Shown: positions 2,160-22,396 of the stretch, piece by piece
Numbering within the stretch: position 1 is the stretch's first letter
Layout of the letters: every line of letters begins with the position of its first letter
NCBI GenBank assembly: GCA_903918195.1
Contig: CAIXDS010000071.1
Location: 1-24,000 of the forward strand
Origin: an uncultured Acetobacteraceae bacterium
Lineage (GTDB): Bacteria > Pseudomonadota > Alphaproteobacteria > Acetobacterales > Acetobacteraceae
DNA: 24,000 nucleotides
Direction of reading: 5' to 3'
Notes under the pieces: generated by a model
What the model was told of the DNA's origin: nothing
The model's input: only the letters and a program-made list of their open reading frames with translations
Database searches by the model: none
Position numbers and translations under genes: made by a program

Positions 2160-3107
2160 TCACTGCTTGGTGCTCGATATTATGGCCGGAACTTGTGCCG
2201 CGTTTTGTAGACGGGACAGTTCCGCCTGCGTTTCTGCCAGGGCATTTGCCTCTGAGCGCGCCACTTCCTCGGCGTTCACGAGGACGAGTTGCTTGCGCAG
2301 CGGAGGAACACAGCCATCATCCAAGTCGAGACCTAGCCGGGTCTTCACGTAATAGCCGAAGCACGTCCGTACGTTCATCTCCATCAAACCGTTGCTCATG
2401 CGGTGCTCAGCTTCCAATGCGCGCTTGGCCGATTCTTCCAAGGCTGGATTGGCTGCCAGGCGGAGGGTCATAATCGTGTGCCAGCCACGGTCAGCGTTGG
2501 AGTCAACGTCGCAGTCGCGTTCCCCTGTGACGCCGGTTATTCGTGACACGACGAAGTCCCGAAAATCATGGTGGGTCGCGCAGTAGGCCCTGACGTGCCA
2601 GCGGTCGCCATCGTCGGCGAATGCATGTGGGGCTATCCATCGGACTGTCGGTTGGGGGTGGGAGAATGACTGATAGGTAACCTCGATAAGCCTCCGTTCG
2701 CGCACGGCCGCGAGCAAGCCCTGCAGAACGACGTCGTCCAGCTTCCTATCCGTACGTGGCACCGCCCGCTCAGCGGTCACGCCAGCGGCCCAAGGCGGCC
2801 TATCGGCACCTTGCTGTCGTTTCTCGGTTCTTTCGAGATCGGCCAGCACATCCATTGCGGACGGCAGGTGAAGGACAGGCCGGAAGCCCGTCCCACGGAG
2901 ATAGGTTTTCCGGCTTCGGTCATAGACTGCGTTGTCCGGCGCAAGCTCGACGTAGCGCGCCAGGTCCACCGAGGCCTGCGGGATCGATATCCCGAAGTGC
3001 CTCACTAGGTCCGACCGGTTCACCCGGCCGGCCCAGAACAGGCACGCGTCTAGGAAAGAAAGCCTCCTTCCCACCCCCCAACGCAGACCGACTCCATCAT
3101 CCGACAT
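2160..3107 (-). CDS. WYL-domain transcriptional regulator, CapW/BrxR-like (wHTH-WYL-C-terminal extension)
   Basis: ORF 2160-3179 trimmed to ATG 3107, which has AGGGGAG (complement of 3114-3120) 6 nt upstream. wHTH: 'RLSFLDACLFWAGRVNRSDLVRHFGISIPQASVDLARY'. WYL domain: 'IEVTYQSFSHPQPTVRWIAPHAFADDGDRWHVRAYCATHHDFRDFVVSRI'. Divergent from the Ubl operon. Confidence 0.85.
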   Translation of the reverse strand: MSDDGVGLRWGVGRRLSFLDACLFWAGRVNRSDLVRHFGISIPQASVDLARYVELAPDNAVYDRSRKTYLRGTGFRPVLHLPSAMDVLADLERTEKRQQGADRPPWAAGVTAERAVPRTDRKLDDVVLQGLLAAVRERRLIEVTYQSFSHPQPTVRWIAPHAFADDGDRWHVRAYCATHHDFRDFVVSRITGVTGERDCDVDSNADRGWHTIMTLRLAANPALEESAKRALEAEHRMSNGLMEMNVRTCFGYYVKTRLGLDLDDGCVPPLRKQLVLVNAEEVARSEANALAETQAELSRLQNAAQVPAIISSTKQ

Positions 3108-3140
3108 GTGCAACTCCCCTGCCCGCGAATCTTGCGTCGG

Positions 3141-3178
3141 TGAGTATTGAAAGTCTATGAATCTAGAAACTAGACTCA
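3141..3178. promoter_or_regulatory. AT-rich nested palindromes overlapping a sigma70-like promoter in the divergent WYL/Ubl intergenic region (candidate WYL operator)
   Basis: TCTAG (3162-3166)-aaa-CTAGA (3170-3174); AGTCTA 3152-3157 pairs with TAGACT 3171-3176; TGAGT 3141-3145 pairs with ACTCA 3174-3178. A possible -35 TTGAAA (3147-3152) and -10 TAGACT (3171-3176) have an 18-nt spacer and point toward 3269. This is the only AT-rich patch in the 161-bp intergenic region. Confidence 0.45.
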
Positions 3179-3268
3179 TCGGTCAGATGGGTGCATACTC
3201 CCCCGTGTCGCGAGTCGTGGTGCCCTTGGTGGGCTGCGGCGGTGCGGACATTGGAACGGAGAGCGCAG

Positions 3269-4357
3269 ATGGACTTCGCAGATGGACACCATGATGACGC
3301 GATAAGCAGGATCGTCATCGACGGGCAGGAGCATACGGTGCATCGGCACCGGATGTTGGTGGCTGAGATATTGGCTCTGGTCGGTCGGTCCCCGGAGGAA
3401 TGGGAACTGGATGCAGAGCTTGCTGGTGGAGACCACGTTACTCTCGGCGGCGATGACGAGGTGAAGTTGCGTGAGGGCGGTATCGTCCGGTTCCACACGC
3501 GCCGCCGGCACCATCATCATCATGGGGATCATTGCGAACTCACCGTCGTCGTGAACAGTGAGCCGATCGTTTTGGATGTGCGCCGTTCGACGCTCCTTTC
3601 TGCCGTGGTCACCGAGGTTCTGGAAAAGGCGAAGCCGACGGGCAGGCCCGACGACCAATGGGAGATGAAGACCGAGGCCGGACAAGTGCTTGATCAGGCG
3701 CTGTCGCTTGAAGCCGCCCATGTGGAGTGCGGGGCAACGCTCTACCTTTCCCTGAAGGCTGGTGCCGCCGGCGAGGCGATGACCGAGCTTCTGGTTGATC
3801 CAGAGGTATCACGGGCGAAATTCTACGAAGAGGTGCGGGATTACCAGCGGGTGCAGGACGCTATGATCCGCCGTGGCCAATGGCTGATCACCGCCGAATA
3901 TCCAGAGGTTTTCGTCGTGTTTGGTGCCCCAAACAGCAATTATCCCACCTGGGCTTTCGGCGCGGTCCTGGACTTCACAAACTACGACCTGTGGCCCGCG
4001 TCAGTGAATCTGGTGAACCCCTTCACGAAGGTGCCCTATCGGGCGGCCGAGATGCCGGCGCCAGCCTGGCTTCAGCGCGTGAACATGAGCACCAACATTC
4101 CTGGCGAGACGCCTACCAACGTCATGTCCGTGGACAGGCTAATGCAGGCTCAGCGGCCGGAAGAAGTTCCCTTCCTGTGTCTGCCTGGCGTGCGGGAGTA
4201 TCACGCGCATCCTGCCCACACCGGAGATAGTTGGTTGCTTCGCCGGACATCTGGGGAAGGCAAGCTGTACAGGCTGCTGGATGTCTTATTTCAATATGGT
4301 TCTGCGCCGATTTGTGGTCTGCATGTGCAGCCCGCCATGAACATCGTCCCGCGGTGA
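3269..4357 (+). CDS. Tandem ubiquitin-like (two beta-grasp repeats) fused in frame to an E2/UBC-like domain (BilA-BilB-like fusion)
   Basis: ORF 3191-4357; start set at ATG 3269 (GGAGAG 5 nt upstream). Repeat 1 is 'ISRIVIDGQEHTV...VKLREGGIVRFHT'; then a His-rich linker; repeat 2 is 'ELTVVVNSEPIVLDV...WEMKTEAGQVLDQ...GATLYLSLKAGAAG', ending in Gly168. The E2-like part is 'YPEVFVVFGAPNSNYPTWAFGAVLDFTNYDLWPASVNLVNPFT' with a candidate catalytic Cys304 in 'EEVPFLCLPGV' (codon 4178-4180). 362 aa. Confidence 0.8.
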   Translation: MDFADGHHDDAISRIVIDGQEHTVHRHRMLVAEILALVGRSPEEWELDAELAGGDHVTLGGDDEVKLREGGIVRFHTRRRHHHHHGDHCELTVVVNSEPIVLDVRRSTLLSAVVTEVLEKAKPTGRPDDQWEMKTEAGQVLDQALSLEAAHVECGATLYLSLKAGAAGEAMTELLVDPEVSRAKFYEEVRDYQRVQDAMIRRGQWLITAEYPEVFVVFGAPNSNYPTWAFGAVLDFTNYDLWPASVNLVNPFTKVPYRAAEMPAPAWLQRVNMSTNIPGETPTNVMSVDRLMQAQRPEEVPFLCLPGVREYHAHPAHTGDSWLLRRTSGEGKLYRLLDVLFQYGSAPICGLHVQPAMNIVPR

Positions 4358-4908
4358 CACTTCTGCACCGGTTGTTCGGCGGGAAAGACCCTTTGGGCGA
4401 TGTGCCACGGACCGGGCTCGAATCCGTGGACCGAGTCTTACTGCCCCAATCCTGCGCCGATGCAACGCAGGATCACCTGCGCGCGGCCGGCCGAATGGGT
4501 AACGAGGGATTGGCTGTCTGGTCAGGGGTCCAGGAAGGATCGACGTTCCGCGTGCTGACTGTAACCGCACCACGCCAGCGGGCAGTGAAGAGCGGACAAG
4601 GCGTGTGCGTGGTGCTGGACGGAGACGCTCTACACGGCCTCAACGTCTCGCTGCACAAGGCCGGCGAAAGGCTGTTCGCGCAAGTCCATTCCCATCCCGG
4701 CCGTGCTTATCATTCACCGATGGATGACCAATACGCCGTGGTCACGGCCGCGGGTGGGCTATCGATCGTAGTTCCCGACTTTGCCGTTCGGCCGTTTTCT
4801 GTCGGGGATTGTGCGATCTACCGCCTGACCCGCTCCGGCAAATGGACCGTGATGCCGAAACGGCGGGCGGAGGCGCTTATCTACGTCGTCAAGGACCAGA
4901 CTCCATGA
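4354..4908 (+). CDS. JAB/MPN (JAMM) metallopeptidase, BilC-like deconjugating/processing enzyme
   Basis: ORF 4231-4908; start at GTG 4354 overlapping the upstream TGA (GTGA 4354-4357). The JAMM motif H-x-H-x7-S-x2-D is 'HSHPGRAYHSPMD' at 4687-4725, with an upstream Glu in 'GNEGLAVWSG'. 184 aa. Confidence 0.85.
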   Translation: MTLLHRLFGGKDPLGDVPRTGLESVDRVLLPQSCADATQDHLRAAGRMGNEGLAVWSGVQEGSTFRVLTVTAPRQRAVKSGQGVCVVLDGDALHGLNVSLHKAGERLFAQVHSHPGRAYHSPMDDQYAVVTAAGGLSIVVPDFAVRPFSVGDCAIYRLTRSGKWTVMPKRRAEALIYVVKDQTP

Positions 4909-6434
4909 ACGTCGCCAGCTTCTTCGACCGGAGCGCGACTGCGGTTGCGCAGGTGCTGGGCGAATGCGATTCTGACCGGCTGAGGCTGAAGCTGTCGGGA
5001 TTGGCCGTGGCGCTCGCCTTTGACAGCAAGGCGGTGCGGGCTTCTGAGGGCGTGGCGACGCTGGAATTGGCGACCGACCTACTGGCGCGTTTCTACCCTG
5101 GACTTGGCCTTATCCCATTGGATGACGATCCAGCGACAGTCGCAATGGTAAGCAAATTGGGCGAAGCGGCGGGTGCAATACATCCGGGAATCGAATTGAA
5201 ACCCGAGATGTGTACGGTGTGTTGCTGCCTGATCGTCGGCAGCCGCGTTCCGGCTCTAGGCGTTCCCACCATATTCATCGGTTCGCACGGCTGGAACGCG
5301 ATACTGGACCCAAGCCAGCCAGTCGGAAGCCTGGACACGCTCAACCCGTTCGGCGCCGCGGCCGCGGCATGCGTCGGCGTCGCCAACGCTTTTCGCTTTG
5401 CCTTTGCGGATCTGCTGCCAGACACCCGACCGGATCGAGCCCTCGAATTCGATGTTCTCCATCATCGGCTTGGGCGCTGCTCGGTCGGCCCGGCATTGCC
5501 GGACCGAGTCGATATCGACGGCACCCACCTTGTCGGCCTGGGTGCCATTGGCCGCGCGGCGGCATGGTCGCTTTCCCATGCTCCGGCGCTGCGCGGCCGT
5601 CTCGACGGGGTTGATCACGAGGCGATCGAGGATTCTAATCTACAACGATATGTGGGGGCGACGCAGGCCGATGCTGCCGCTGGCGTGTTGAAGTGCCAAT
5701 CCGTGATGGCGATGTTTCGCGGCTCCGGCGTGCAGGTCGTGGAGCACCCGCTCACATGGGGCCAGTATCTGCGGTCCCGGGCTGATTGCCGTCTTGATCG
5801 GGTGGCCGTCGCGCTGGACACGCCGGACGACCGGATCTCCCTTCAAGCGGCGCTACCCCGCCGGATTCTGAACGCTTGGACGCAGCCGGGTGATCTGGGT
5901 GTCTCCCGTCATGGTTTCACCTCCGGCCCGTGCCTCGCCTGTCTTTACCTGCCAGAGCGTGAGGTGCCGAGCCTCTCCCACCTTGTGGCGGATGCTATTC
6001 GCTTGCCCGAGTTGGAAGTTCGCGGCCTGCTGCATGCCGGCTTTCGAGTAGACGCCGCGTTCTTGGGGCGGGTCGCGCTCGCAGCAGAGGTGCCGCTGGA
6101 AGCTTTGCTACCCTTTGATGGCCTGCCTCTACGCTCGTTCTACACGAAGGCGGTATGCGGCACGACCTGGTTCGGTACCGGCGCCGGCGGCGACCGGGGT
6201 GCAATGGCGGTGCCGATGGCATTCCAGTCCGCGCTCGCCGGTGTTCTGCTCGCCGTCGAAATCGTCGCCGACGCCGTGATGTTGCGCACAACGGCGATGG
6301 CACCGCTCACAAAAATCAATTTACTCAAGCCGCTCGGAAGCCGTTTGGTGGAACCGGCCGCAAAACATAAGTCTGGCCAGTGCATCTGCCAGGACGACAC
6401 ATATCGTGCGGCCTATCAGCGGAAGTATGCCTAA
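4905..6434 (+). CDS. E1-like ThiF/MoeB-family adenylating enzyme with an inactive N-terminal lobe and an active C-terminal lobe (BilD-like)
   Basis: ORF 4809-6434; ATG 4905 overlaps the JAB stop (ATGA 4905-4908). The Rossmann motif 'LVGLGAIGRAAAW' (GLGAIG 5535-5552), 'DHEAIEDSNLQRY' and 'ALDTPDDR' lie in the C-terminal half. Cys pairs 'CLACLY' and 'GQCICQ' look like a zinc site. A helical insertion 'LSHLVADAIRLPELEVRGLLH...FYTKAVCGTTWF' carries a candidate catalytic Cys. The N-terminal ~220 aa lack a nucleotide motif. 509 aa. Confidence 0.85.
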   Translation: MNVASFFDRSATAVAQVLGECDSDRLRLKLSGLAVALAFDSKAVRASEGVATLELATDLLARFYPGLGLIPLDDDPATVAMVSKLGEAAGAIHPGIELKPEMCTVCCCLIVGSRVPALGVPTIFIGSHGWNAILDPSQPVGSLDTLNPFGAAAAACVGVANAFRFAFADLLPDTRPDRALEFDVLHHRLGRCSVGPALPDRVDIDGTHLVGLGAIGRAAAWSLSHAPALRGRLDGVDHEAIEDSNLQRYVGATQADAAAGVLKCQSVMAMFRGSGVQVVEHPLTWGQYLRSRADCRLDRVAVALDTPDDRISLQAALPRRILNAWTQPGDLGVSRHGFTSGPCLACLYLPEREVPSLSHLVADAIRLPELEVRGLLHAGFRVDAAFLGRVALAAEVPLEALLPFDGLPLRSFYTKAVCGTTWFGTGAGGDRGAMAVPMAFQSALAGVLLAVEIVADAVMLRTTAMAPLTKINLLKPLGSRLVEPAAKHKSGQCICQDDTYRAAYQRKYA

Positions 6435-6489
6435 TCTGAATTCCAGTTGCGTGTCGCTTTACGCGCCTTAGGGTAGGAGAAAACCAAGG

Positions 6490-7026
6490 TTGGCCAACCC
6501 GCTGCTCTCAGAGGAGGAAGCCGAAAGGTATTTTCAGCGGCATGAAATGCTATTGGAGTTTTCCCGACTTTTTGACTATGGCGAGGCGAGCGACCGCGCC
6601 GTTGCAATAGTCGGCCCGGCATTTCTTGATACGCTGTTGAGCGAAGCCCTTGTCGAATTCATGATTGAAAATAGGACTGAGGTAAACAAACTGCTCCAAC
6701 CGGATGGGCCACTTGGTACATATGGAAGCCGAGTGACTGCCTGTTATTGCCTTGGACTGACCGGAAAAATTGTCACCAGTGACCTGAGACTTGTTGGCAA
6801 GATCAGGAACCGCTTTGCACACGACATCCGCGCGGACTTTTCCGATTCGAAGATCAGCCAGTGGTGCCGGGCACTCCGCTGGCACAAAGAATTCTTCGCA
6901 GTGCCACCGCCCGATGCAACCGACAGGGACTTGTTCCAAGTTGGAGTCAACCAGCTCGTCTCGCATTTGACCGCCATTCCCGGTGTGGCGCGCCTCAGCA
7001 AGCGCTCTGAGGTCCTCCACACATAG
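6490..7026 (+). CDS. HEPN-superfamily protein, MtlR-like (candidate RNase effector)
   Basis: ORF 6490-7026 (TTG start; AGGAGA about 9 nt upstream; start uncertain). 'GPLGTYGSRVTACYCLGLTGKIVTSDLRLVGKIRNRFAHD' carries the HEPN R-x4-H motif 'RNRFAH' (6805-6822) in the MtlR-type context. Sampled 60-nt blocks are about 47-53% GC, against about 70% in the adjacent E1 gene. 55-bp gap after E1 with no terminator seen. Confidence 0.7.
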   Translation: MANPLLSEEEAERYFQRHEMLLEFSRLFDYGEASDRAVAIVGPAFLDTLLSEALVEFMIENRTEVNKLLQPDGPLGTYGSRVTACYCLGLTGKIVTSDLRLVGKIRNRFAHDIRADFSDSKISQWCRALRWHKEFFAVPPPDATDRDLFQVGVNQLVSHLTAIPGVARLSKRSEVLHT

Positions 7027-9008: not shown

Positions 9009-9440
9009 TCATTCCTCACCCGGCAACGGTACGTGCCGAACGCTCCGGTAATGGTCATCAGGCAGGATCGTTTCCCCGTGTGCCACGATGCCAAAGCAGT
9101 CTGTGATGAGGCGGACGAACCCCGGCTGGTGCAACTGCCTGTCGGCCCGGATGACGAAGCGCCGTGCCACGGAATCATAGAGAACACGGCCACGTGGCCA
9201 TTCCTCGTATTCGGACCAGACTGGAGCCGTTGGAATTCCATCTCCGCGGAGTGCACGCGCGCCACGGCGGGCCAGCCGCGACCAGTGCTCAAGATGGCCC
9301 GTGTCCACGGTCAGCATGTCGCCATAGGCCTCGGCCCGTTCCAGCGGGACGGCCAGTGCGATGACGGTCGATTTTCCGCCCTCCTCGACCACCCAGAACG
9401 GGCCGACCATCCCGCCTCCGTCTGGTTTCGCCCCGTTCAT
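9009..9440 (-). CDS. Hypothetical protein (143 aa) translationally coupled to the DUF2779 gene
   Basis: ORF 9009-9503 trimmed to ATG 9440, which overlaps the upstream stop (ATGA on the minus strand, 9440-9437). G/C-rich third positions. Conserved-looking segments are 'GPFWVVEE', 'SEYEEWPRGRVLYD' and 'RFVIRADRQL'. Family not recognised. Confidence 0.65.
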   Translation of the reverse strand: MNGAKPDGGGMVGPFWVVEEGGKSTVIALAVPLERAEAYGDMLTVDTGHLEHWSRLARRGARALRGDGIPTAPVWSEYEEWPRGRVLYDSVARRFVIRADRQLHQPGFVRLITDCFGIVAHGETILPDDHYRSVRHVPLPGEE

Positions 9441-10921
9441 TGCTGCGCCAGCTTTGCCAGAGCGCGGTGCACCTCGACCATGGCAAGCGTATCGCGCTGG
9501 CAATAGGCGCGCAGCGCGGCCTGCAACCGATCGGCTTCCTCGGGAACCGCGAGAACGCCGGAGGCTAACTGCAGGAACGCCGCCGCCGCCGCGAGTCCAT
9601 CGGCGATGCCGTCGAGATCGTCGTAACCAAAGCCGGGGCGGAGGGCGGGAGCAACGGATTTGATCGAGTTGCTGAAGCCGAACTCAGGAAGGTAGACGGT
9701 ACCGCGCACGATCGGCAGCAGGTCCAGCAGCCGGGCGATGATCGCGGCGATCCCCGAGCACAGATCGGAGAACCGCGCCGCCAGTTCCTTCAGCTGCGTC
9801 TGTTCATAGGCCGAATAGACGATGATCGGCCCATCGAAGGCCCCGAGTGCCTCGATCAGCGTTTCGGCGAATCGGCGCCGCGGATCTTCGCTGCCATCGG
9901 CGAGGAACTCCCGGTGATGCAGGGCACCGTCGTCGGCGATCGCGTGCAATGACCATTGAAAGGGAAGAGTCTGGTAGGGTCGCGTCCCTTCGTAGAGCGG
10001 GATGGGTGGCATCATCGCCTCGAAGTCCAGGTAGCAGGCGGGAGGGCCGTAGCCCGGCAGCAGGCGTGCCAGATCGGGAGCGATGTAGGGCCGCCCGCTT
10101 GCGGTCGCATCGCGGATGATGGCTTGCTTTCCCGTCAGCGGGAAATCCGCCGGGATTGCTGAAATGGCATCGATGCCGCGCGCCTGGAGCTCGCTCGCGC
10201 GGGCATGCGACAGACGGGGGAGATAGGCGATCCAGTCGGCCGGCTTGTGTGCCGTGCACCGGTCCCAGTACTCGCACTCATAGGGCGCGCGGCACTGGCT
10301 GCCCGGCTCGGCATCCGGAGGCTCGGCCATGCGCAGACATGCCCGCATGGCGGGCAGCGCCGCGGGCAGGTCGCCAAGCCTCTTCGCCACCTCGGCACCG
10401 ATGTCGCTTCGGGCGAAGAACTCCGGCCAACTGATGCCGCCGGCCCCGCGAACATAGGACGTGTTCACATGGAGATGCTCGACGGATGGGATGGGGATGC
10501 CAGCGCCCCTGAGAACGTGGAGCTGAAGAGCAATGTCGTCGACATGATGGTCCTTGACGCTGGCGCTGCTCTTCACTTCCCGTAGTCCCCAGGTCGCGTT
10601 GCCCCGCCGTTCAAGCACGTCCACCCGGATACGGATATCGTCGTGCTCGAACGCGGCCTCGAAGATCGCCGGCACGCCCGTATCGTCCATCAGCGCGGCC
10701 GTGCGGGCGCGGGCTTCGGCATGCTGCCACGGTTCCTGGTCGACGAGCACGCCACCAGGAAACAGCAGGTACGCCTTGCGGCCGATCTGCTGTCCGATGT
10801 CCAGCGGGGATCCCGGCAGTGGTTCCTCGTAATTCGGCGGCTCGTTGACCAGCAGCCAGAGCCGGCGCAGGCATTGCAGACCGGCGATGTAGCGCGACTT
10901 GGTGAGATGCTGACCGGGCAC
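9437..10921 (-). CDS. DUF2779-type protein: N-terminal Cas4/RecB-like PD-(D/E)xK nuclease with a Cys cluster plus a C-terminal RNase H-like exonuclease domain
   Basis: ORF 9437-11089. Family N-terminus 'LTKSRYIAGLQCLRRLW'. Nuclease motif 'IRIRVDVLERR...WGLREVKSS'. Cys cluster 'QC...CRAPYECEYWDRC'. C-terminal 'CYLDFEAMMPPIPLYEGTRPYQTLPFQWSLH'. Start moved to GTG 10921 because the 56 upstream codons have clearly lower GC3; ATG 11089 remains possible. Confidence 0.85.
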   Translation of the reverse strand: MPGQHLTKSRYIAGLQCLRRLWLLVNEPPNYEEPLPGSPLDIGQQIGRKAYLLFPGGVLVDQEPWQHAEARARTAALMDDTGVPAIFEAAFEHDDIRIRVDVLERRGNATWGLREVKSSASVKDHHVDDIALQLHVLRGAGIPIPSVEHLHVNTSYVRGAGGISWPEFFARSDIGAEVAKRLGDLPAALPAMRACLRMAEPPDAEPGSQCRAPYECEYWDRCTAHKPADWIAYLPRLSHARASELQARGIDAISAIPADFPLTGKQAIIRDATASGRPYIAPDLARLLPGYGPPACYLDFEAMMPPIPLYEGTRPYQTLPFQWSLHAIADDGALHHREFLADGSEDPRRRFAETLIEALGAFDGPIIVYSAYEQTQLKELAARFSDLCSGIAAIIARLLDLLPIVRGTVYLPEFGFSNSIKSVAPALRPGFGYDDLDGIADGLAAAAAFLQLASGVLAVPEEADRLQAALRAYCQRDTLAMVEVHRALAKLAQQ

Positions 10922-11193
10922 TGATTGCGTCCGAGGTGGATGCAGAATCCTCCACGCCCCGATTGTTGTCGGCAACCGGAAATCGTCGCGCCTGGATGTG
11001 ACCACGTCCGCTTCTGTCGTGGCGGTGGCGTATTCTTTCGGAACGCCGCAGTGACAGGAGGCCACCGAACCGGCTATGACACGCTCCATGCCATGAGCAC
11101 CTGACCCGAGACCTCTTTGACGCTCAGGAATCAGCCCGCACTCGGACTCTGTCCGGACGGTCTGGTCCGCGTGTGTTCATCGAGGAGGTCCCC

Positions 11194-11551: not shown

Positions 11552-11815
11552 CCCGTCAGCACGCCATCCGAAAGCTGTGATCGATGTCGCAATTGACAGC
11601 CGCCGCCGGCGCGGCCTATCCGTCCGGTTCCGTAAGCACCTGTCTGCCCACCCGAGCCACCCTGTCCGCCATCCCGCCGGCCCTCGGTCGCGCGGGCATT
11701 TTGCGTTCAGCGATGACCAACGCAGCGGCGAAGGCCGACCTGCGCGTTCCTGCACGACTAGGTTTGACGCACGACAGGCGCATCTCTCCCACGCGTGCGG
11801 TCAGGAAAAACTGAC

Positions 11816-13939
11816 ATGACCATTTCCGAGTATATGGAAATCGAGCACGCCGCGCCGGCGCGGTCGGTCAACAGCGGGCGGTGCCTGGCGCTCCGCTGCG
11901 CCCGCAATGTCTGCGCCGCGGCCTCCCGCCGCTCTCCAGAGGCCCGGGCGGTTGCCGACTGGCTCGCCGAACATGCCGAGGCACTCGGCCTGCCCGATGC
12001 GGCGCCGCCGGAGGAGAGCATGCCCGTCGGCACGCAGCGCCGCCGCGGCGTCTCGGCCGAGGTCTGGGACTGGGTCGGGCAGACGCTGGAGGATGCCTGG
12101 AACAGTGAGGCCGCCGCGGCGAACACGGCGGCCGAACGCTGGGCCAACGCCATCGCCGCCAGGCTCGCGCTTGATCCGGCGGAAGCGTCGGTCTTCTCCC
12201 TGGCGCTGCATTACCGGCTGGACCAGCGGGTCGAAAACCTGTTCGACGCGGTCAGCCAGTCCCGCGGCGGCCGGTCACAGCTCCACCGCGATGTGGCGCT
12301 GATCGGGCTGCTGCTCGGGGAAGCCGAGGCCGGGATCGAGGCGCGCCTGATGCCTGAAGCTCCGCTGCTGGCCAGCGGCCTGCTGCATCTCGACCGGGAC
12401 GGCGACCTGATGGTCCTGCACCAACTCGTCTGCCTCATCCGGCGGAACACCCCCCCGGGCGCCGATCTGTACGACCACCTGCTCGGCAAGGCGGCGGGCG
12501 ATCCGCTGCCTTGGGAGGCGTTCGCACATCTCGGCCGCGAGGCGGAGGTCGCGGCCGAGGTGCTGCGGGCGACGCTTGCCGCGCGGGAGAGCGGCGTCAA
12601 CATCCTGCTTTACGGGCCGCCGGGCACCGGGAAGACCTCATTCGCCGCCACCCTGGCCGCCCATGTCGGCGCCCGGCTGCGGCCGGTGACGGAAGCCAGC
12701 GAAAGCGGTTGGGAACCCCGGCGGCACGAGCGCCTGGCCGGGCTGCTGTTGGCCCAGCGCCTGGCGGCACCGGGGGAGACGCTGCTGTTGTTCGACGAGG
12801 CCGAGGACCTCTTCGTCGCCCGCACCTATCGGGACGGCGACTTGGTGGCGAGTTCGCGCGTCTTCATGCATCGCCTTCTCGAACGCATGACATTGCCGGT
12901 GATCTGGACCGCGAACGACATCGGCGCGCTCGGCCCGGCGGTGCTGCGGCGGATGACGATGTGCCTGGAGCTGAAGGTGCCGAACGTGGTGACGCGGACC
13001 CGGCTCTGGCGCCAGATGGCGACGGCGGAAGGTGTCGCGTTGCCGGAGGCCGACGCCGCCCGCCTCGCCCGGCTGGTTCCGGCCGCCCCCGCCGTCGCTT
13101 CCGCCGCGCTGCGGGCGACGCGCCTCGCCGGCGGCGGGGCGGAGACGGCCAGGCTGATCATCGAGGGCGTGGCGCGCGCGGTGCAGGGCGGTGGCCTTCC
13201 GCTGCCGGAGCCGGAGCACGATGCCGATTACGACCCCGCGCTGGTGAACGCGGATTGCGACCTCGCGTCCCTGACCGCCGGTCTGGTGCGGCAACGTGCG
13301 CCGCGCGCGGTTTCGTTCCTGCTGGCGGGACCGCCGGGCACGGGCAAGAGCGTCTGGGTGCGGCACCTCGCGGCGCGGATGGGGATGCAGGTGCTCCAGA
13401 AGCGTGCCTCCGACCTGCTCAATTCGTTCCTCGGCGGCACCGAGCGGAACATCGCCGACGCCTTCGCCGAGGCGCGGGACACCGGCGCCTTCCTGGTGTT
13501 CGACGAGGCCGACAGCCTGCTGCTCGACCGCGCCGACGCGGTGCGCAGCTGGGAGATCAGCCAGGTCAACGAGATGCTCACCTGGATGGAGCAGCATCCG
13601 TTGCCGTTCGCCTGCACGACCAACCTCCCGGCCCGCCTCGACCGCGCCAGCCTGCGCCGCTTCCTGGTCAAGGTCAGCTTCGACTGGCTGACGCAGGCCC
13701 AGGCGCGGCTGGCCTTCCGGCGGTTCTTCGGCATGGCGCCGCCCGCGGGACTCGACGGCCTGCTGACACTGACGCCCGCGGATTTCGCGCTGGTCCGGCG
13801 GCGCGCCGCGGTGACCGGCGCCACGGCGAACCAGGCGGCGCTGCTGCGTCTGCTGGCCGCCGAGTGCGAGGGCCGGGTCGGCGGGCGGCTGCAGGTCGGG
13901 TTCGCGGCCAGGGCGGCGGGTGATTGCGATGCCGCATAG
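11816..13939 (+). CDS. Tandem classical AAA+ ATPase (two AAA modules, Cdc48/VAT-like arrangement) with an unassigned ~250-aa N-terminal region
   Basis: ORF 11795-13939; ATG 11816 (AGGA about 9 nt upstream). AAA1: Walker A 'GPPGTGKT' 12614-12637, Walker B 'LLLFDEAEDL', 'WTANDIGALGPAVLRRM'. AAA2: Walker A 'GPPGTGKS' 13328-13351, pore-loop-like 'NSFLGGTE' (FLG 13427-13435), Walker B 'FLVFDEADSL', second region of homology 'TTNLPARLDRASLRRF'. 707 aa. Confidence 0.85.
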   Translation: MTISEYMEIEHAAPARSVNSGRCLALRCARNVCAAASRRSPEARAVADWLAEHAEALGLPDAAPPEESMPVGTQRRRGVSAEVWDWVGQTLEDAWNSEAAAANTAAERWANAIAARLALDPAEASVFSLALHYRLDQRVENLFDAVSQSRGGRSQLHRDVALIGLLLGEAEAGIEARLMPEAPLLASGLLHLDRDGDLMVLHQLVCLIRRNTPPGADLYDHLLGKAAGDPLPWEAFAHLGREAEVAAEVLRATLAARESGVNILLYGPPGTGKTSFAATLAAHVGARLRPVTEASESGWEPRRHERLAGLLLAQRLAAPGETLLLFDEAEDLFVARTYRDGDLVASSRVFMHRLLERMTLPVIWTANDIGALGPAVLRRMTMCLELKVPNVVTRTRLWRQMATAEGVALPEADAARLARLVPAAPAVASAALRATRLAGGGAETARLIIEGVARAVQGGGLPLPEPEHDADYDPALVNADCDLASLTAGLVRQRAPRAVSFLLAGPPGTGKSVWVRHLAARMGMQVLQKRASDLLNSFLGGTERNIADAFAEARDTGAFLVFDEADSLLLDRADAVRSWEISQVNEMLTWMEQHPLPFACTTNLPARLDRASLRRFLVKVSFDWLTQAQARLAFRRFFGMAPPAGLDGLLTLTPADFALVRRRAAVTGATANQAALLRLLAAECEGRVGGRLQVGFAARAAGDCDAA

Positions 13940-13958
13940 AAGAAGGCAGCATGCCGCC

Positions 13959-15005
13959 ATGAGGTATGGACCAGCAGAACGTCTGCTGCGCCTCGCCCGC
14001 TCTCTGGCGGCGACCCGCACCGGGCTGACGCTCGACGAAATGGCCGCCGAGCTTGAAGTCACGCGGCGGACGGCCGAGCGGCTGCGCGATGCCCTGATGG
14101 CCATGTTCCCGGAAATGGACAGCCAGGATGGCGACGACCGCACACGGCGCTGGCGGCTGCCGGGCAGCACCCTGATCGGGGTGCTGGAACCCCGCGCCGA
14201 GACCGTGGCCGCGGTCGAAACCGCCGCGCGCGAGTGCGAGCAACGCGGCGAAGCCGACCGCGCGGCGCTGCTGCGCGATGCCGCGACCACGCTGCGGGCG
14301 GTGATGCGGCCGGATGCCCTGCGCCGCACCGAGACGGGCATCGCCGCGCTGATGGAGGCCGAGGGCATCGCGATGCGACCGGGACCGCGGCCGGTGCTGG
14401 CTGCCGGGGTCCTGCCGACGTTGCGCCGGGCGATTCTGGGCATGCAGCCCGTCGTGGTCCGCTACGCGGGGCGCGATGCGGAGGAACCGGCGACGCGCAT
14501 CTTGTGTCCGTACGGCATTCTCTACGGCGGGCGCGGCTGGCTGGTCGCGCATGTCGAGAACCTACCGGAGATGCGGCTGTGGCGGTTGGATCGGATCGTT
14601 TCGGCCGATCGGCTCGAACGTTGCTTTCTGCGACGGGAAGATTTTTCGCTAGCGGCCTATGCGGCGCGGTCCTTCGGGGTGTTTCAGGAGGAGCCGATCG
14701 ACGTGGTGCTGCGGTTTGAACCGGAGGCGGCGGAGGACGCGGCATCCTGGACGTTTCATCCGTCACAATTTATCGTGCGGGAAGCGGATGGTTCTCTGAC
14801 CGTGCGGTTCCGGGCGGGCGGGGTGCAGGAGATGTGCTGGCATCTGTTTGCGTGGGGGACGGCGGTGACGGTGGTGGGGCCAGAATCGCTACAGGATACG
14901 ATCGCAGTTCTTGCGCGGGCTCTCGCCCAACACCACGCGAGGATCAGGGCTTGCGTTGACATATCAAACAAATCTGATGGCGGAAGGCACGATCATGCCA
15001 GATGA
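13959..15005 (+). CDS. HTH-WYL-WCX transcriptional regulator (YafY/PafBC-like)
   Basis: ORF 13920-15005; ATG 13959 lies 19 nt after the AAA+ stop. HTH: 'RLLRLARSLAATRTGLTLDEMAAELEVTRRTAERLRDAL'. WYL: 'VVVRYAGRDAEEPATRILCPYGILYGGRGWLVAHVENLPEMRLWRLDRI'. WCX-like: 'SLTVRFRAGGVQEMCWHLFAWGTAVTVVGPESL'. 348 aa. Confidence 0.85.
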   Translation: MRYGPAERLLRLARSLAATRTGLTLDEMAAELEVTRRTAERLRDALMAMFPEMDSQDGDDRTRRWRLPGSTLIGVLEPRAETVAAVETAARECEQRGEADRAALLRDAATTLRAVMRPDALRRTETGIAALMEAEGIAMRPGPRPVLAAGVLPTLRRAILGMQPVVVRYAGRDAEEPATRILCPYGILYGGRGWLVAHVENLPEMRLWRLDRIVSADRLERCFLRREDFSLAAYAARSFGVFQEEPIDVVLRFEPEAAEDAASWTFHPSQFIVREADGSLTVRFRAGGVQEMCWHLFAWGTAVTVVGPESLQDTIAVLARALAQHHARIRACVDISNKSDGGRHDHAR

Positions 15006-16314
15006 GGCCCAGATACGAGACTTCTTTGCGAGGGTACGCGGCATTGCCGAGGCGACGCGACTGGCGGGATCAGCGATCGCCCGCGCAGTTGCTCCGCGTT
15101 TCTGCCCTGTTGCGCTGTTTTATCCGAACGAAACTGACCTGAGTCGCGTGCTCGCATTCCTGATTGATCCGACCGCCAATCACGGGCAGGGAACGATGTT
15201 TCTGCGTCTCTTTCTTGATGTCGTTGGGTTGCCTGAATGCGACGATCGGGAGGACGGGATTGACGTTTCGACAGAATATGTTTTGAGTCCCAGTTTGCGT
15301 CGCGCCGATATCGCTGTCAGTTATACCCGTCTGGATAGGCAACGAATTCATTTGCTGATCGAAAATAAGCCGTGGGCTGGCGATGGTGTAGATCAGCTTT
15401 CTGATTATTCGAAATACCTGAAAACTAAATATCAGTCTACGCCATGGGCAATTGTTTATATTCCATCGACGGAGCGCGACCCTGGCGCGCACTCCGTCGA
15501 TGAGAACTGCTTCCAAACCCTTATCGCGAATCGTAGTTTATTTATCTTACCGTATGTGTCGAAGCAAAGAGAGAGATCGATTCAGGAATGGCTCAAACGC
15601 TGTGAAGCAACCTGCGAGGCTGAGGAGCCTCGGCGTTTTATTGGTGCCTTCAGGCGCTATCTTGCAGAGAATGTTCCAGATACTGGAGTTGTTCAGATGA
15701 GCGATGCCGAACGGTCGGTTGCGCAGATTTTGCTGAAGTTCTTGCAGGAACGCGACGAAGATATAAATATCGCACTGGAGGTACCAAAGGCGCTCGCCAG
15801 CCTTCGGAATGATCTGGCCAAGAAGATTGGGGATCGGATCACGGAGGGGATAAGAAGCAGGTTGCAGGGTGGTGACTGGCAGATCGAATCGAACTTTACG
15901 ACCGAGCAGTGGGCCGGCTTGGGCATTTACCGTTCTCGTTGGCCAAAGGGAATGACAAAGAAAAATCAAGAAAGTCAGTGTTTCGTTGGTATCGAGTTTC
16001 ATGGCAGCTTTAAACAGGCCCACTACGGTGTGGCGGGGCACAGAGATATGCTTGGGGAGCTCAGGGGACCTATCAGGGAGGCTGCGAGCGAGTATTTGCG
16101 GCTCGCCGGGGACCGGGATTGGTGGCCAGCCATATTAAATTTCGAACAGCCATTGGCCGATTGGCTATCGGATGAGTTCCTGCACTTCGCCCGACGCGTA
16201 CTGCGCGACGAGGAAGAGTCGTCGGCTGTTGTCAACAATTTGGTTACATGTATTGTTGAGGTTGCCAAGAAAGTCGACGAAGTGGTCACCAGGATGCAGC
16301 CCGATAAGGCGTGA
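14995..16314 (+). CDS. PD-(D/E)xK nuclease superfamily protein (PDDEXK_4-like N-terminal domain, unassigned C-terminal half)
   Basis: ORF 14911-16314; ATG 14995 has GGAAGG 7 nt upstream and overlaps the WYL gene end by 11 nt. 'ETDLSRVLAFLIDPTANHGQGTMFLRLFL' is followed by the nuclease core 'RRADIAVSY...RIHLLIENKPWAGDGVDQLSDY' (Asp codon 15307-15309, E-N-K 15361-15369). Sampled blocks are about 47-52% GC. 439 aa. Confidence 0.75.
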   Translation: MPDEAQIRDFFARVRGIAEATRLAGSAIARAVAPRFCPVALFYPNETDLSRVLAFLIDPTANHGQGTMFLRLFLDVVGLPECDDREDGIDVSTEYVLSPSLRRADIAVSYTRLDRQRIHLLIENKPWAGDGVDQLSDYSKYLKTKYQSTPWAIVYIPSTERDPGAHSVDENCFQTLIANRSLFILPYVSKQRERSIQEWLKRCEATCEAEEPRRFIGAFRRYLAENVPDTGVVQMSDAERSVAQILLKFLQERDEDINIALEVPKALASLRNDLAKKIGDRITEGIRSRLQGGDWQIESNFTTEQWAGLGIYRSRWPKGMTKKNQESQCFVGIEFHGSFKQAHYGVAGHRDMLGELRGPIREAASEYLRLAGDRDWWPAILNFEQPLADWLSDEFLHFARRVLRDEEESSAVVNNLVTCIVEVAKKVDEVVTRMQPDKA

Positions 16315-19300: not shown

Positions 19301-19663
19301 GGTTGTGCAGGCGAGCGCATCGATCCGCGACGCGGCCTGCATCAGCGCCGCGTGTTGCGCCGCGGTCAGCCCCTTTGGCAGCGCCGCTGCCAGATCACGC
19401 GGCACCTCGTTGCGGCAGAGCGCCATCACGAAGCGCTCCACTCGCTCACGCAACTCGCTCGCCGAGGCTTCGGTGAAGCTGATCGCGGCGATGCTCTCGG
19501 GCGCTCGCCCGGCCGCGAGCAGCAAGGCGATGCGCCCGGCCAGCACCGAGGTCTTTCCCGATCCGGCTCCGGCCTCGACAAGCAGCGTGGCATCAAGATC
19601 GGTGAGCGCCCGCAGCCGGCTGGCGGCGTCCGATCGTGCGAGAGTGGCAACGCTTGACATCAC
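16337..19663 (-). CDS. AddA-like UvrD/Rep-family helicase with a C-terminal RecB-type nuclease
   Basis: 1108-aa ORF. Walker A 'EAGAGSGKTSVL', motif II 'VLVDEFQDTDPVQ', motif III 'LFLVGDPKQAIYRFRGA', 'CNFRS', 'ITMHAAKGLEW' and 'LWYVAATRARDLLLL'. C-terminal nuclease 'GIADAVAL...EMVIDWKSD...YAAQVRTYL'. Start is GTG 19663 or ATG 19660, both overlapping the upstream stop (19660-19662). Confidence 0.9.
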   Translation of the reverse strand: MMSSVATLARSDAASRLRALTDLDATLLVEAGAGSGKTSVLAGRIALLLAAGRAPESIAAISFTEASASELRERVERFVMALCRNEVPRDLAAALPKGLTAAQHAALMQAASRIDALACTTIHGFCRMLLTPWPVEARTDPGATVADAGEAALLFDETVQEVLRERLASDTAGDDALAALFLLDEGKPEELIAGFAQMLRQHRGATLPPAPDLEGACAALRQAVAALQVFVDGVPICEPLIKEVAEGLEDLLTGLPDGAAGDIARLLALLYLPVPQACSTAAGAFAAYRKKGAWQTTLGGRGSKAEADRLNDEATALYAACKTGHAELRAAAAGTLLARLAPDLQAIVDRFQETKRAAGLLDFDDLLHGARDLLAGNPAVRAALAGRFRHVLVDEFQDTDPVQAEILWRLCGDAPAGHTDAPWTDWRLRDGALFLVGDPKQAIYRFRGADVATYVRARDALRAGAPDNVLAIGCNFRSVEPILEWVNERFAAPLGAPGQPGFAPLFSTAAALDERASVCALDIEAAETNAASLRDAEADQVAETCRRLIGAFAVRGSDGTTRPCRAGDIALLAPTGTDLWRYERALEDRFLPVATQAGKGFFRRQEVQDLIALAGALADARDTLALGALLRGPLVGMTEEALLDALEAVPPAADGRPARLNLWLPIVNVAEPVLRETLEILQGLARRARATTPYVLLAQAVEEMRVRPVLRQRFGRGAERALANVDAFLEMARGWETRGLGAFARAIRTQWQEETRTQEARPDAEQEAVSLITMHAAKGLEWAVVIPVNTSGGVFGPRPPVLDRATGLLHARILGVDPPGCAAALADETAQMGLERQRLWYVAATRARDLLLLPRFAAKLSDSAWSAAVPLEVRTLPAFDQAGLPPSVLPVHTEEANGQDAATFTTEAGLITARATRLVRVTPSRAESGEADPEPVVLDAADQPEPPPLPQGGRGRGLVLHKLMEEVLTGETGDTEAALRVRAAELAATCPEPVDDADPAELAASVLRTLALPDVNAVRASLVPEFNVCAAAAGDAGEEVVLGIADAVALSAGGAPEMVIDWKSDVAPDAAAIAGYAAQVRTYLRATGAARGLVVFMTSGRMVRVDPE

Positions 19664-22305: not shown

Positions 22306-22396
22306 TATTTCGGGTCTCCGAGGTGCGACGGCGCTCATTCCCACGATTTCTTAGCATGATCCGGCATCCGAACCGCTGCAGCCGGCATCGATATTC

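What the first reader, a model, noticed from the sequence alone, without database searches (positions are those of the whole stretch)
3269..4357. Ubl and its E2 are encoded as one polypeptide: the E2 would be the C-terminal extension that must be cut off
The reading frame runs uninterrupted from the second beta-grasp repeat ('...GATLYLSLKAGAAG', Gly168 codon 3770-3772) into the E2-like domain ('EAMTELLVDPEV...'). The internal ATG 3779 has only a GAGG 2 nt upstream, so independent E2 initiation looks unlikely. Conjugation needs a free C-terminal Gly, and Chambers et al. 2024 showed that the Bil deubiquitinase pre-processes the Ubl to expose it. Here the piece to be removed would be the whole ~194-aa E2. 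That enforces 1:1 Ubl:E2 synthesis and makes the JAB peptidase an obligatory activator. One base change (TAG to GAG at 3773-3775) would also produce this arrangement, so a recent stop loss or a sequencing error is the main alternative.
Basis: partly seen in the sequence, partly recalled or inferred. Interest (0 to 1): 0.7.

Follow-up and report, generated by a model that had tools for sequence, protein, structure and literature searches.

The report
Fused ubiquitin-like protein and E2 enzyme
A bacterial anti-phage ubiquitination operon makes its ubiquitin-like tag and its E2 enzyme as one protein that almost certainly has to be cut apart by the neighbouring protease; the fusion is real, conserved and arose several times, but the same trick is already known from a sister system.

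Summary
Window 3269-4357 is one uninterrupted 362-codon ORF. It holds two beta-grasp (Ubl) domains (aa 14-79 and 85-168) followed directly by a CEHH-type domain (aa 176-348). That domain is the Type II Bil E2 (BilB). Overlapping start and stop codons (GTGA, ATGA) link the ORF to a JAB peptidase (BilC, 4354-4908) and an E1 (BilD, 4905-6434).

The fusion is neither a sequencing error nor a recent stop loss:
- At least 40 distinct fused proteins exist, at 28-91% identity. The Gly168 equivalent is invariant in all 40.
- dN/dS against the closest relative is about 0.1 in both halves.
- Fused operons fall into four separately supported E1 clades, so the fusion arose at least four times.

Gly168 aligns with the terminal or cleaved Gly of standalone Ubls (E. 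aridi BilA Gly97). The E2 part starts at native length straight after it. Apart from the first four residues, AlphaFold confidence drops below 50 only at residues 167-172.

The best explanation is a BilA-BilB pre-protein that BilC cleaves after Gly168. Cleavage itself is inferred, not shown. Precedents are E. aridi BilC cutting Ubl-GFP and Type I Bub BubAB being cleaved by its JAB domain.

Verdict: a new architectural variant of a known system, of moderate interest.

The parts
2160..3179 (-). Divergently transcribed WYL-domain regulator (CapW/BrxR-like)
   Evidence: Pfam WYL 1.5e-13 and PADLOC WYL 2e-14. 92% identical in L001, and WYL homologues sit upstream of the operon in L040, L041, L045, L057 and L058. 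HTH-WYL regulators are a reported partner of the related Bub operons.
3269..4357 (+). BilA-BilB fusion ORF (362 aa plus stop): two beta-grasp Ubl domains followed by the CEHH-type E2
   Evidence: Conserved as a fusion in at least 40 proteins.
3308..3505 (+). Beta-grasp domain 1 (aa 14-79)
   Evidence: Pfam Multi_ubiq 1.8e-7. aa 10-168 align with domains 2 and 3 of the M. brachiatum three-domain BilA, 8u38, at 5e-14. AF2 models it as a confident beta-grasp.
3497..3532 (+). His-rich inter-domain linker RRRHHHHHGDH (aa 77-88)
   Evidence: Conserved in the fused Acetobacteraceae-type clade. pLDDT dips to 68 in residue block 81-90. Role unknown.
3521..3772 (+). Beta-grasp domain 2 (aa 85-168), ending in LSLKAGAAG
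   Evidence: Pfam DUF2604 4e-17. aa 79-168 align with E. aridi BilA residues 7-97 at 2e-10, placing Gly168 opposite Gly97. Standalone Ubls end in LKAG[VAI][GA]G, then a stop or a tail of 1-14 aa.
3770..3775 (+). Predicted BilC cleavage site, Gly168|Glu169
   Evidence: Gly is invariant in 40/40 fused proteins, and conservation collapses directly after it. pLDDT is below 50 at residues 167-172. The position is homologous to the mapped Gly97|Ala98 cut in E. aridi. Cleavage is inferred, not shown.
3779..3781 (+). Internal ATG (Met171); probably the relic start codon of the once-separate E2 gene
   Evidence: GAGG lies only 2 nt upstream. A Met occurs at this alignment column in 4/40 fused proteins and anywhere in the linker in 12/40. 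L003 and L004 have no start-type codon nearby.
3773..4354 (+). E2 (BilB) moiety, aa 169-362. Catalytic Cys304 is codon 4178-4180 and His317 is codon 4217-4219
   Evidence: Pfam Metal_CEHH 2.4e-44. Matches 8tyz_C BilB at 9e-39, with C304/E310/H312/H317 opposite C138/E144/H146/H151. Foldseek TM 0.89-0.92 to BilB chains.
4354..4908 (+). JAB/JAMM peptidase BilC (184 aa). Its GTG start overlaps the fusion's TGA stop (GTGA)
   Evidence: PADLOC BilC 2e-15. Matches 8tyx_B BilC at 3.3e-43. E51 aligns with E33, the H112-x-H114...S121-x2-D124 motif is intact, and D124 aligns with D106.
4905..6434 (+). E1 BilD (509 aa). Its ATG start overlaps the BilC stop (ATGA)
   Evidence: Full-length match to 8tyz_A BilD at 4.6e-123. 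Cys418 aligns with the catalytic Cys417, and the CxxC and CxC zinc ligands are kept. Pfam Prok-E2_C (actually the inactive adenylation domain) plus ThiF.
6490..7026 (+). 178-aa MtlR-like ORF; possible accessory gene of the cassette
   Evidence: Lies inside the only DNA block shared with L001 (2192-7025, 89.7%), with 89% aa identity there. Absent from the other loci. Pfam MtlR 3e-5, below the cut-off. Role unknown.

Best explanation
Window 2160-6434 is a complete Type II Bil (bacterial ISG15-like) ubiquitination cassette. In it the Ubl (BilA, here two beta-grasp domains) and the E2 (BilB, CEHH type) are translated as one pre-protein. The co-translated JAB metallopeptidase BilC cuts the peptide bond after Gly168 (AAG|EAMTE). 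This releases (i) a di-beta-grasp Ubl with the free C-terminal Gly that the E1 BilD needs for adenylation, and (ii) an E2 with a native-length N-terminus. The usual E1~Ubl to E2~Ubl to target-lysine cascade then follows.

Consequences: Ubl and E2 are made 1:1, and BilC is obligatory for producing any conjugatable Ubl.

Shown here:
- The fusion, its conservation and its recurrence.
- The homology of Gly168 to the reactive Gly.
- Intact catalytic residues in all enzymes.
- A flexible junction.

Inferred: cleavage by BilC, conjugation activity and an anti-phage role.
For: **Identity of the parts**
- Searches match the E. aridi BilA, BilB, BilC and BilD structures at 2e-10, 9e-39, 3e-43 and 5e-123.
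- All catalytic and zinc residues are retained.

**Conservation of the fusion**
- At least 23 clusters of full-length two-beta-grasp fusions at 48-91% identity, plus one-domain (about 300 aa) and 448-aa forms.
- 9 of 81 species-level loci are fused in frame.
- About 8-10 of roughly 180 50%-identity representatives are fused.
- dN/dS against L001 is 0.13, 0.13 and 0.09 for Ubl1, Ubl2 and E2, and 0.04 across the junction.

**Independent origins**
- Four fused groups each have 100/100 bootstrap support on the E1 tree. Two of them nest with unfused sisters.
- All-fused monophyly is 0/100.

**Junction**
- Gly168 is 40/40 invariant, G165 is 39/40, and the residues after the Gly are variable.
- The modal distance from the Gly to the conserved Asp177 is 8 residues. 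Standalone E2s have a modal N-terminal length of 8 before the same Asp, so there is no added linker.
- AF2 pLDDT falls below 50 only at residues 1-4 and 167-172.

**Only Ubl present**
- No other Ubl match was found in the window or, among the best matches kept per locus, outside the fusion ORF in the fused loci. The called genes of L081/L082 include no separate Ubl gene.

**Precedents**
- E. aridi BilC cleaves a Ubl-GFP fusion exactly after Gly97 (PMC10557695).
- Type I Bub BubAB is cleaved by the BubCD JAB domain after Gly229 (PMC11601596).
Against: - No experiment on this protein or on any BilA-BilB fusion was found.
- The window does carry an in-frame ATG at codon 171. ATG, GTG or TTG codons persist near that position in several independent fusions (WIN, L001, L002, L008, L016). 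Some E2 could therefore be made by internal initiation.
- A 1:1 Ubl:E2 ratio is not obviously optimal, because the Ubl is consumed and the E2 is catalytic.
- The tree is neighbour-joining on E1 only and assumes the operon is inherited as a unit.
Confidence: 0.8

Rival explanations
1. Dual expression. The fusion ORF is real, but the working E2 is made mainly by internal initiation at ATG 3779. The full-length product serves only as the Ubl precursor, or is a minor by-product.
For: ATG 3779 sits where the start codon of standalone E2 genes aligns. Start-type codons persist at or near this position in WIN, L001, L002, L008 and L016.
Against: The only SD-like element is GAGG, 2 nt from the ATG. 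Met occurs at that column in 4/40 fused proteins and anywhere in the linker in 12/40; many have A-A-T, A-G-S or A-A-G instead. L003 and L004 have no nearby start-type codon. No promoter-like site lies near the junction. Even if this reading were true, the Ubl would still need the E2 cut off.
Confidence: 0.1
2. Uncleaved fusion. The beta-grasp domains are a permanent N-terminal module of the E2, for example for docking to the E1, for oligomerisation or for target binding. They are never conjugated.
For: Nothing here shows cleavage directly. Ubl domains fused permanently to enzymes are common in eukaryotes (own knowledge). pTM of 0.57 leaves the inter-domain geometry open.
Against: The complete C-terminal recognition motif LxLKAGxxG is as conserved as in free Ubls, and the Gly is 40/40 invariant. 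No other Ubl gene was found in the fused operons examined, yet the E1 adenylation domain, the E1 and E2 catalytic Cys and the JAB active site are all kept. The junction is predicted disordered. The homologous Bub fusion is cleaved.
Confidence: 0.07
3. Artefact or recent accident. A sequencing or assembly error, or a very recent stop-codon loss private to this genome, joined two normally separate genes.
For: In 7 of 80 loci (L005-7, L009-12) the Ubl stop follows the GG directly and the E2 lies in the same frame. There, a single base change could create a fusion.
Against: The same fusion occurs in L001-L004 and in at least 23 protein clusters down to 48% identity. dN/dS is about 0.1 on both sides and 0.04 across the junction, with mostly synonymous differences.
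Confidence: 0.01

Closest known systems
Type II BilABCD (CEHH/'6C' operons), e.g. Ensifer aridi TW10 (Chambers et al.; PMC10557695; PDB 8tyx, 8tyz, 8tz0)
   Same: All four activities are homologous, in the same order Ubl-E2-DUB-E1. The CEHH catalytic motif, the E1 IAD+AAD architecture with its catalytic Cys and zinc site, the JAMM site and a Ubl ending in Gly are all present. BilC pre-processing after the Gly is documented, including removal of a folded GFP.
   Different: In the window, BilA and BilB form one polypeptide, giving a three-gene operon. The Ubl has two beta-grasp domains; this was reported for 1 of 134 Type II Bil Ubls. The piece to be removed is the 194-aa E2 rather than a single residue. 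The papers I could read describe Bil proteins as separate.
Type I Bub BubAB (Citrobacter; '6E.1'/DUF6527 operons; PMC11601596)
   Same: An Ubl(1-3 beta-grasp)-E2 pre-protein that a JAB/JAMM peptidase cleaves directly after a conserved Gly to give an active Ubl and E2. This is the same logic as proposed here.
   Different: It is a different family. The Bub E2 uses Ser/His and oxyester intermediates and has no catalytic Cys. The JAB is fused to the E1 (BubCD). A DUF6527 serine protease (BubE) is present. In the window the E2 has Cys304, the JAB and E1 are separate genes, and no DUF6527 was found among the scanned ORFs.
Eukaryotic ubiquitin precursor fusions (polyubiquitin; Ub-ribosomal protein fusions UBA52 and RPS27A)
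   Same: The Ubl is synthesised with a C-terminal protein extension that a DUB must remove to expose Gly-Gly. This gives stoichiometric co-production of the two products (own knowledge).
   Different: The extension is a ribosomal protein or another ubiquitin, not the pathway's own E2. There is no evolutionary link to this fusion.
CBASS Cap2 (E2-E1 fusion) and Type II Bub BubBD
   Same: These are also bacterial conjugation systems that fuse pathway components.
   Different: They fuse enzyme to enzyme, and the fusion stays intact. No cleavage is needed to create the reactive C-terminus.

Membership tests
Type II Bil (BilABCD, CEHH/6C) | E2 of the CEHH family with the Cys/Glu/His/His motif | tested here: met
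   Pfam Metal_CEHH 2.4e-44. Matches 8tyz_C at 9e-39, with C304/E310/H312/H317 aligned to C138/E144/H146/H151. Foldseek TM 0.89-0.92.
Type II Bil (BilABCD, CEHH/6C) | Multidomain E1 with an inactive and an active adenylation domain, a catalytic Cys in an inserted CYS domain and a Cys4 zinc site | tested here: met
   Full-length alignment to BilD 8tyz_A at 4.6e-123. Cys418 aligns with Cys417, and the CxxC and CxC ligands are kept. Pfam PF14459 plus ThiF.
Type II Bil (BilABCD, CEHH/6C) | JAB/JAMM deubiquitinase with an intact active site | tested here: met
   Matches 8tyx_B BilC at 3.3e-43. E51 aligns with E33, the HxH...S..D motif is present and D124 aligns with D106. PADLOC BilC 2e-15.
Type II Bil (BilABCD, CEHH/6C) | Beta-grasp Ubl whose last domain ends in the reactive Gly | tested here: met
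   aa 79-168 align with BilA 7-97, placing Gly168 opposite Gly97. The motif LKAGxxG is shared with 60+ standalone Ubls.
Type II Bil (BilABCD, CEHH/6C) | Gene order Ubl-E2-DUB-E1 | tested here: met
   The order E2-JAB-E1 is kept in the window and in all 80 related loci; a beta-grasp (Ubl) match lies directly upstream of the E2 in 67 of them.
Type II Bil (BilABCD, CEHH/6C) | Ubl and E2 encoded as separate proteins (as the family is described) | tested here: not met
   A single ORF runs 3269-4357. This concerns architecture, not homology. I file the system as a fused variant of the family.
Type II Bil (BilABCD, CEHH/6C) | Ubl-lysine conjugation and phage defence | not testable with these tools
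   Needs biochemistry and phage assays. The context is a defence-island-like region: integrase, WYL regulators, IetA-like and PDC-S26-like genes.
Type I Bub (BubAB/BubCD/BubE) | Ubl-E2 fusion pre-protein | tested here: met
   The architecture is shared.
Type I Bub (BubAB/BubCD/BubE) | E2 with catalytic Ser/His (no Cys) and a JAB fused to the E1 | tested here: not met
   The E2 has Cys304 in a CEHH motif. The JAB and E1 are separate ORFs homologous to BilC and BilD.
Type I Bub (BubAB/BubCD/BubE) | DUF6527 serine protease BubE in the operon | tested here: not met
   No such Pfam hit among the ORFs scanned across the window.

The most novel reading that the evidence does not exclude
BilA-BilB pre-proteins evolved independently at least four times in Type II Bil. 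In them BilC would act as an obligate on-switch rather than a trimming or deconjugating enzyme. The E2 would be held inactive, with its N-terminal E1-binding face blocked by the attached Ubl, until BilC cuts. The whole ubiquitination cascade would then be licensed, zymogen-style, by one proteolytic event that could itself be the regulated, infection-sensing step.
Probability: 0.2. Interest if true: 0.55.

Novelty: new variant of a known kind. Interest (0 to 1): 0.35.

Why it matters
If BilC cleavage is confirmed, these operons are natural three-gene Type II Bil systems in which the deubiquitinase is strictly required to start the pathway. That separates its activating role from its deconjugating role, which is hard to do in the E. 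aridi model, where only one residue is trimmed.

The fusion arose at least four times in Bil and is universal in Type I Bub. This argues that co-synthesis of Ubl and E2, or protease-gated release, carries a selective advantage in bacterial ubiquitination-based immunity.

There is also a practical point. Surveys that look for a separate small Ubl gene will score such operons as lacking a Ubl. The reported 17% of Type II operons without four proteins may partly be fusions of this kind.

Tried and rejected
1. **Pfam labels at face value.** I rejected this because the E. aridi crystal structures show that CEHH is the E2 and that PF14459 is the E1 inactive adenylation domain.
2. **Sequencing error or private stop loss.** Rejected.
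3. **A single ancient fusion clade.** Rejected. All-fused monophyly is 0/100, and there are four separate groups at 100% support.
4. **tblastn 'query residues matched 85-354' in most loci.** This looked like widespread fusion. Frame-by-frame inspection showed that most are separate, overlapping genes in different frames. Long upstream 'open' stretches such as ...EPEGRGRRR... are the out-of-frame reading of LNLKAGVGG.
5. **Internal promoter or terminator at the junction.** None found.
6. **Literature searches for a described BilA-BilB fusion.** 'BilAB', 'BilA BilB fused' and 'Type II Bil' gave nothing relevant. The final Nature paper and all supplementary tables were not available, so prior mention there cannot be excluded.
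7. **Long CEHH proteins with N-terminal extensions unannotated by Pfam (P0135, P0142, P0149, P0151, P0155).** These were left unclassified.

Full report
**1. The observation**

Window 3269-4357 (+) is a single ORF of 362 codons. An upstream in-frame GTG at 3191 is possible, but homologue N-termini and a GGAG 7 nt before ATG 3269 favour 3269.

- Gly168 is GGC at 3770-3772.
- Glu169 is GAG at 3773-3775.
- Met171 is ATG at 3779-3781.
- The only Shine-Dalgarno-like element is GAGG at 3773-3776, 2 nt upstream of that ATG.

Pfam places Multi_ubiq at aa 14-79, DUF2604 at aa 85-168 and Metal_CEHH at aa 176-348 (E = 2.4e-44, full-length profile).

**2. What the domains are**

Pfam calls the C-terminal domain a 'predicted metal binding domain'. 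It places an 'E2 family C' domain at the N-terminus of the next large protein.

The Corbett-lab work on the Ensifer aridi system resolves this (PMC10557695):
- The CEHH protein adopts an E2 fold with catalytic Cys138 and the adjacent His151.
- PF14459 is the inactive adenylation domain of a eukaryote-like E1.

Direct comparison with the solved chains confirms membership:

| Window protein | PDB match | E-value | Key residues |
|---|---|---|---|
| Fusion aa 175-355 | BilB 8tyz_C | 9e-39 | C304/E310/H312/H317 on C138/E144/H146/H151 |
| Fusion aa 79-168 | BilA residues 7-97 | 2e-10 | Gly168 on the reactive Gly97 |
| Fusion aa 10-168 | Domains 2-3 of the three-domain M. brachiatum BilA, 8u38 | 5e-14 | - |
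| Downstream ORF 4354-4908 | BilC 8tyx_B | 3.3e-43 | E51 = E33; H112/H114/S121/D124 intact |
| Downstream ORF 4905-6434 | BilD 8tyz_A | 4.6e-123, full length | Cys418 = Cys417; both zinc Cys pairs kept |

The three genes are linked by GTGA and ATGA start/stop overlaps. A WYL regulator is transcribed divergently at 2160-3179. The locus is therefore a complete Type II Bil system in which BilA and BilB are fused.

**3. Is the fusion real and conserved?**

A search of 5.8 billion proteins returned at least 23 clusters of full-length two-beta-grasp+CEHH proteins at 48-91% identity. It also returned shorter one-beta-grasp+CEHH forms (about 290-320 aa) and 448-aa forms.

A scan of one genome per species gave 80 loci. 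All have the order E2-JAB-E1, and 67 show a beta-grasp (Ubl) match directly upstream of the E2. Frame-by-frame analysis gave these in-frame, stop-free fusions:
- the window and L001-L004 (Acetobacteraceae MAGs; L001 is 91% identical)
- L008 (Methylorubrum podarium)
- L016 (Adhaeribacter aquaticus)
- L022 (a Dehalococcoidia MAG)
- L023 (Hymenobacter profundi)

All other loci where a Ubl was detected have separate genes. Their Ubl ends in LKAG[VAI][GA]G, followed by a stop or by a tail of 1-14 residues. The E2 gene usually sits in another frame with a short overlap. The nearest standalone E2s, P0040 and P0031, follow 85-86-aa Ubl genes with an 8-nt overlap.

Among representatives at 50% identity, about 8-10 of roughly 180 are confirmed fusions.

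Window versus L001 gives dN/dS of 0.13 (Ubl1), 0.13 (Ubl2), 0.09 (E2) and 0.04 across the junction.

**4. How often did the fusion arise?**

I built a neighbour-joining tree of the E1 proteins from 74 loci with 100 bootstraps. The fused loci fall into four groups, each at 100% support:
- the Acetobacteraceae clade
- L008, nested with unfused Methylobacterium/Beijerinckiaceae loci
- L022, sister to unfused L046
- L016 plus L023

No combination of fused groups was ever monophyletic (0/100). This implies at least four independent fusions, assuming the operon is inherited as a unit.

In seven loci (L005-7, L009-12) the Ubl stop follows the GG directly and the E2 is in the same frame. The unfused sisters of L008 and L022 are out of frame, which implies small indels in those cases.

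**5. Anatomy of the junction**

Across 40 fused proteins:
- Gly168 is invariant, G165 is 39/40, and L158 and L160 are each 39/40.
- Conservation collapses directly after the Gly. In the main clade the next residue is always Asp or Glu (24/24).
- The modal distance from the Gly to the invariant Asp177 is 8 residues (25/40).
- Standalone E2s have a modal 8 residues, including the Met, before the same Asp (35/58).

The fusion is therefore a head-to-tail join with no added linker. A cut after Gly168 yields an E2 with a native-length N-terminus.

AlphaFold2 on a 98-sequence alignment gives mean pLDDT 88.6. Only two segments fall below 50: residues 1-4 and 167-172. pTM of 0.57 indicates no fixed inter-domain geometry. 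Foldseek matches the C-half to BilB (TM 0.89-0.92), and the N-half to diubiquitin/ISG15 and to BilA (TM 0.88).

**6. Internal initiation**

ATG 3779 lies where standalone E2 genes start. ATG, GTG or TTG codons persist nearby in WIN, L001, L002, L008 and L016, probably as relics of the former start codon.

Against a conserved internal start:
- L003 and L004 have no such codon nearby.
- A Met occurs at that column in only 4/40 fused proteins and anywhere in the linker in 12/40.
- The SD spacing in the window is 2 nt.
- No promoter-like site lies near the junction.

Internal initiation cannot be a general feature of the fused clade. It is not excluded as a minor route in this genome.

**7. Mechanism**

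The operon contains no other Ubl. The E1 needs a free C-terminal Gly, and the full recognition motif is conserved. The Ubl must therefore be released.

BilC is the obvious protease. E. aridi BilC cuts a Ubl-GFP fusion exactly after Gly97, so it tolerates a large folded leaving group. In the sister Bub family, the natural Ubl-E2 fusion BubAB is cleaved by the JAB domain of BubCD directly after Gly229.

I therefore hold, at about 0.8, that the product is a BilA-BilB pre-protein cleaved by BilC after Gly168, and that normal E1-E2 conjugation follows. Cleavage, conjugation and defence are inferred.

**8. Comparison with what is known, and novelty**

The system is a member of Type II Bil on every homology criterion. 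It departs from the family as described in having BilA and BilB fused and in having two beta-grasp domains. Two-domain Ubls were reported for 1 of 134 Type II Bil Ubls. Bil proteins are described as 'separate'.

The locus works like Type I Bub BubAB but is not a Bub system. It has a Cys-type CEHH E2, a separate JAB and E1, and no DUF6527.

PolyUbl fused to an E2-like domain was already noted for the 6e operons in 2006.

I found no description of BilA-BilB fusions in the papers I could read. I could not read the final Nature article or any supplementary table.

My verdict is a new architectural variant of a known kind. It is moderately interesting because it recurs and because it makes the activating role of the DUB obligatory. 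The principle itself is already established.

**9. Context**

The window and L001 share DNA only over 2192-7025 (89.7%). This block covers the WYL regulator, the three Bil genes and a 178-aa MtlR-like ORF, which suggests a cassette of about 4.8 kb that moves between contexts.

It sits next to a tyrosine integrase (959-2050) in a defence-island-like region that contains:
- an IetA-like AAA ATPase
- a second WYL-WCX regulator
- a PDC-S26-like nuclease
- an AddAB-like gene pair

Noticed in passing
window 3497-3532 (aa 77-88 of the fusion): A His-rich linker, RRRHHHHHGDH, lies between the two beta-grasp domains. It is conserved as a His-rich stretch throughout the fused Acetobacteraceae-type clade, and AF2 confidence dips there. 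It may be a metal site; related three-domain Ubls form Ca2+-dependent filaments.
   Followed up: no
window 6490-7026 (+): A 178-aa ORF with a weak MtlR-like Pfam hit (3e-5, below the cut-off) lies directly after the E1. It is inside the only DNA block shared with L001 (89% aa identity) and absent from the other related loci. It may be an accessory gene of this cassette.
   Followed up: partly
window 2192-7025 versus L001 4924-9762: DNA similarity to the closest relative (89.7%) is confined to the WYL-Bil-MtlR-like block and the flanks are unrelated. A tyrosine integrase lies at 959-2050. This suggests a mobile cassette of about 4.8 kb.
   Followed up: partly
window 3147-3179: By eye, the palindrome TCTAGAAACTAGA is nested in AGTCTA...TAGACT (3152-3176). 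It overlaps the -10-like hexamer of the single promoter-like site (TTGAAA-18-TAGACT) and abuts the WYL start codon. It is a candidate operator of the WYL regulator. The repeat tool did not report it because the arms are shorter than the seed.
   Followed up: partly
window 11795-16314: A possible second defence module: an IetA-like double-AAA ATPase (11795-13939), a WYL-WCX regulator (13920-15005) and a PDC-S26-like PD-(D/E)XK protein (14911-16314).
   Followed up: no
window 16337-22344 (-) and 9437-11089 (-): An AddA/UvrD-like helicase (1107 aa) with an AddB-like PD-(D/E)XK protein (893 aa), and a 549-aa DUF2779 protein with a faint Cas4-like match.
   Followed up: no
L081 5001-7929; L082 3392-6320: A one-beta-grasp Ubl-E2 fusion (309 aa) sits in a three-gene operon with 4-nt and 1-nt gene overlaps, a divergent MarR-like regulator, and a TraG/T4SS coupling-protein gene close by. 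The fused Bil variant therefore also occurs next to conjugative-element genes.
   Followed up: partly
L005-L007, L009-L012: In these unfused loci the Ubl stop codon follows the terminal GG directly and the E2 ORF opens in the same frame at the very next codon. They are one substitution away from a fusion.
   Followed up: yes
P0135, P0142, P0149, P0151, P0155: These are CEHH proteins of 314-382 aa with 95-135 N-terminal residues that match no Pfam family. They could be divergent Ubl fusions (as in Hymenobacter L023) or mis-called starts in GC-rich DNA.
   Followed up: partly
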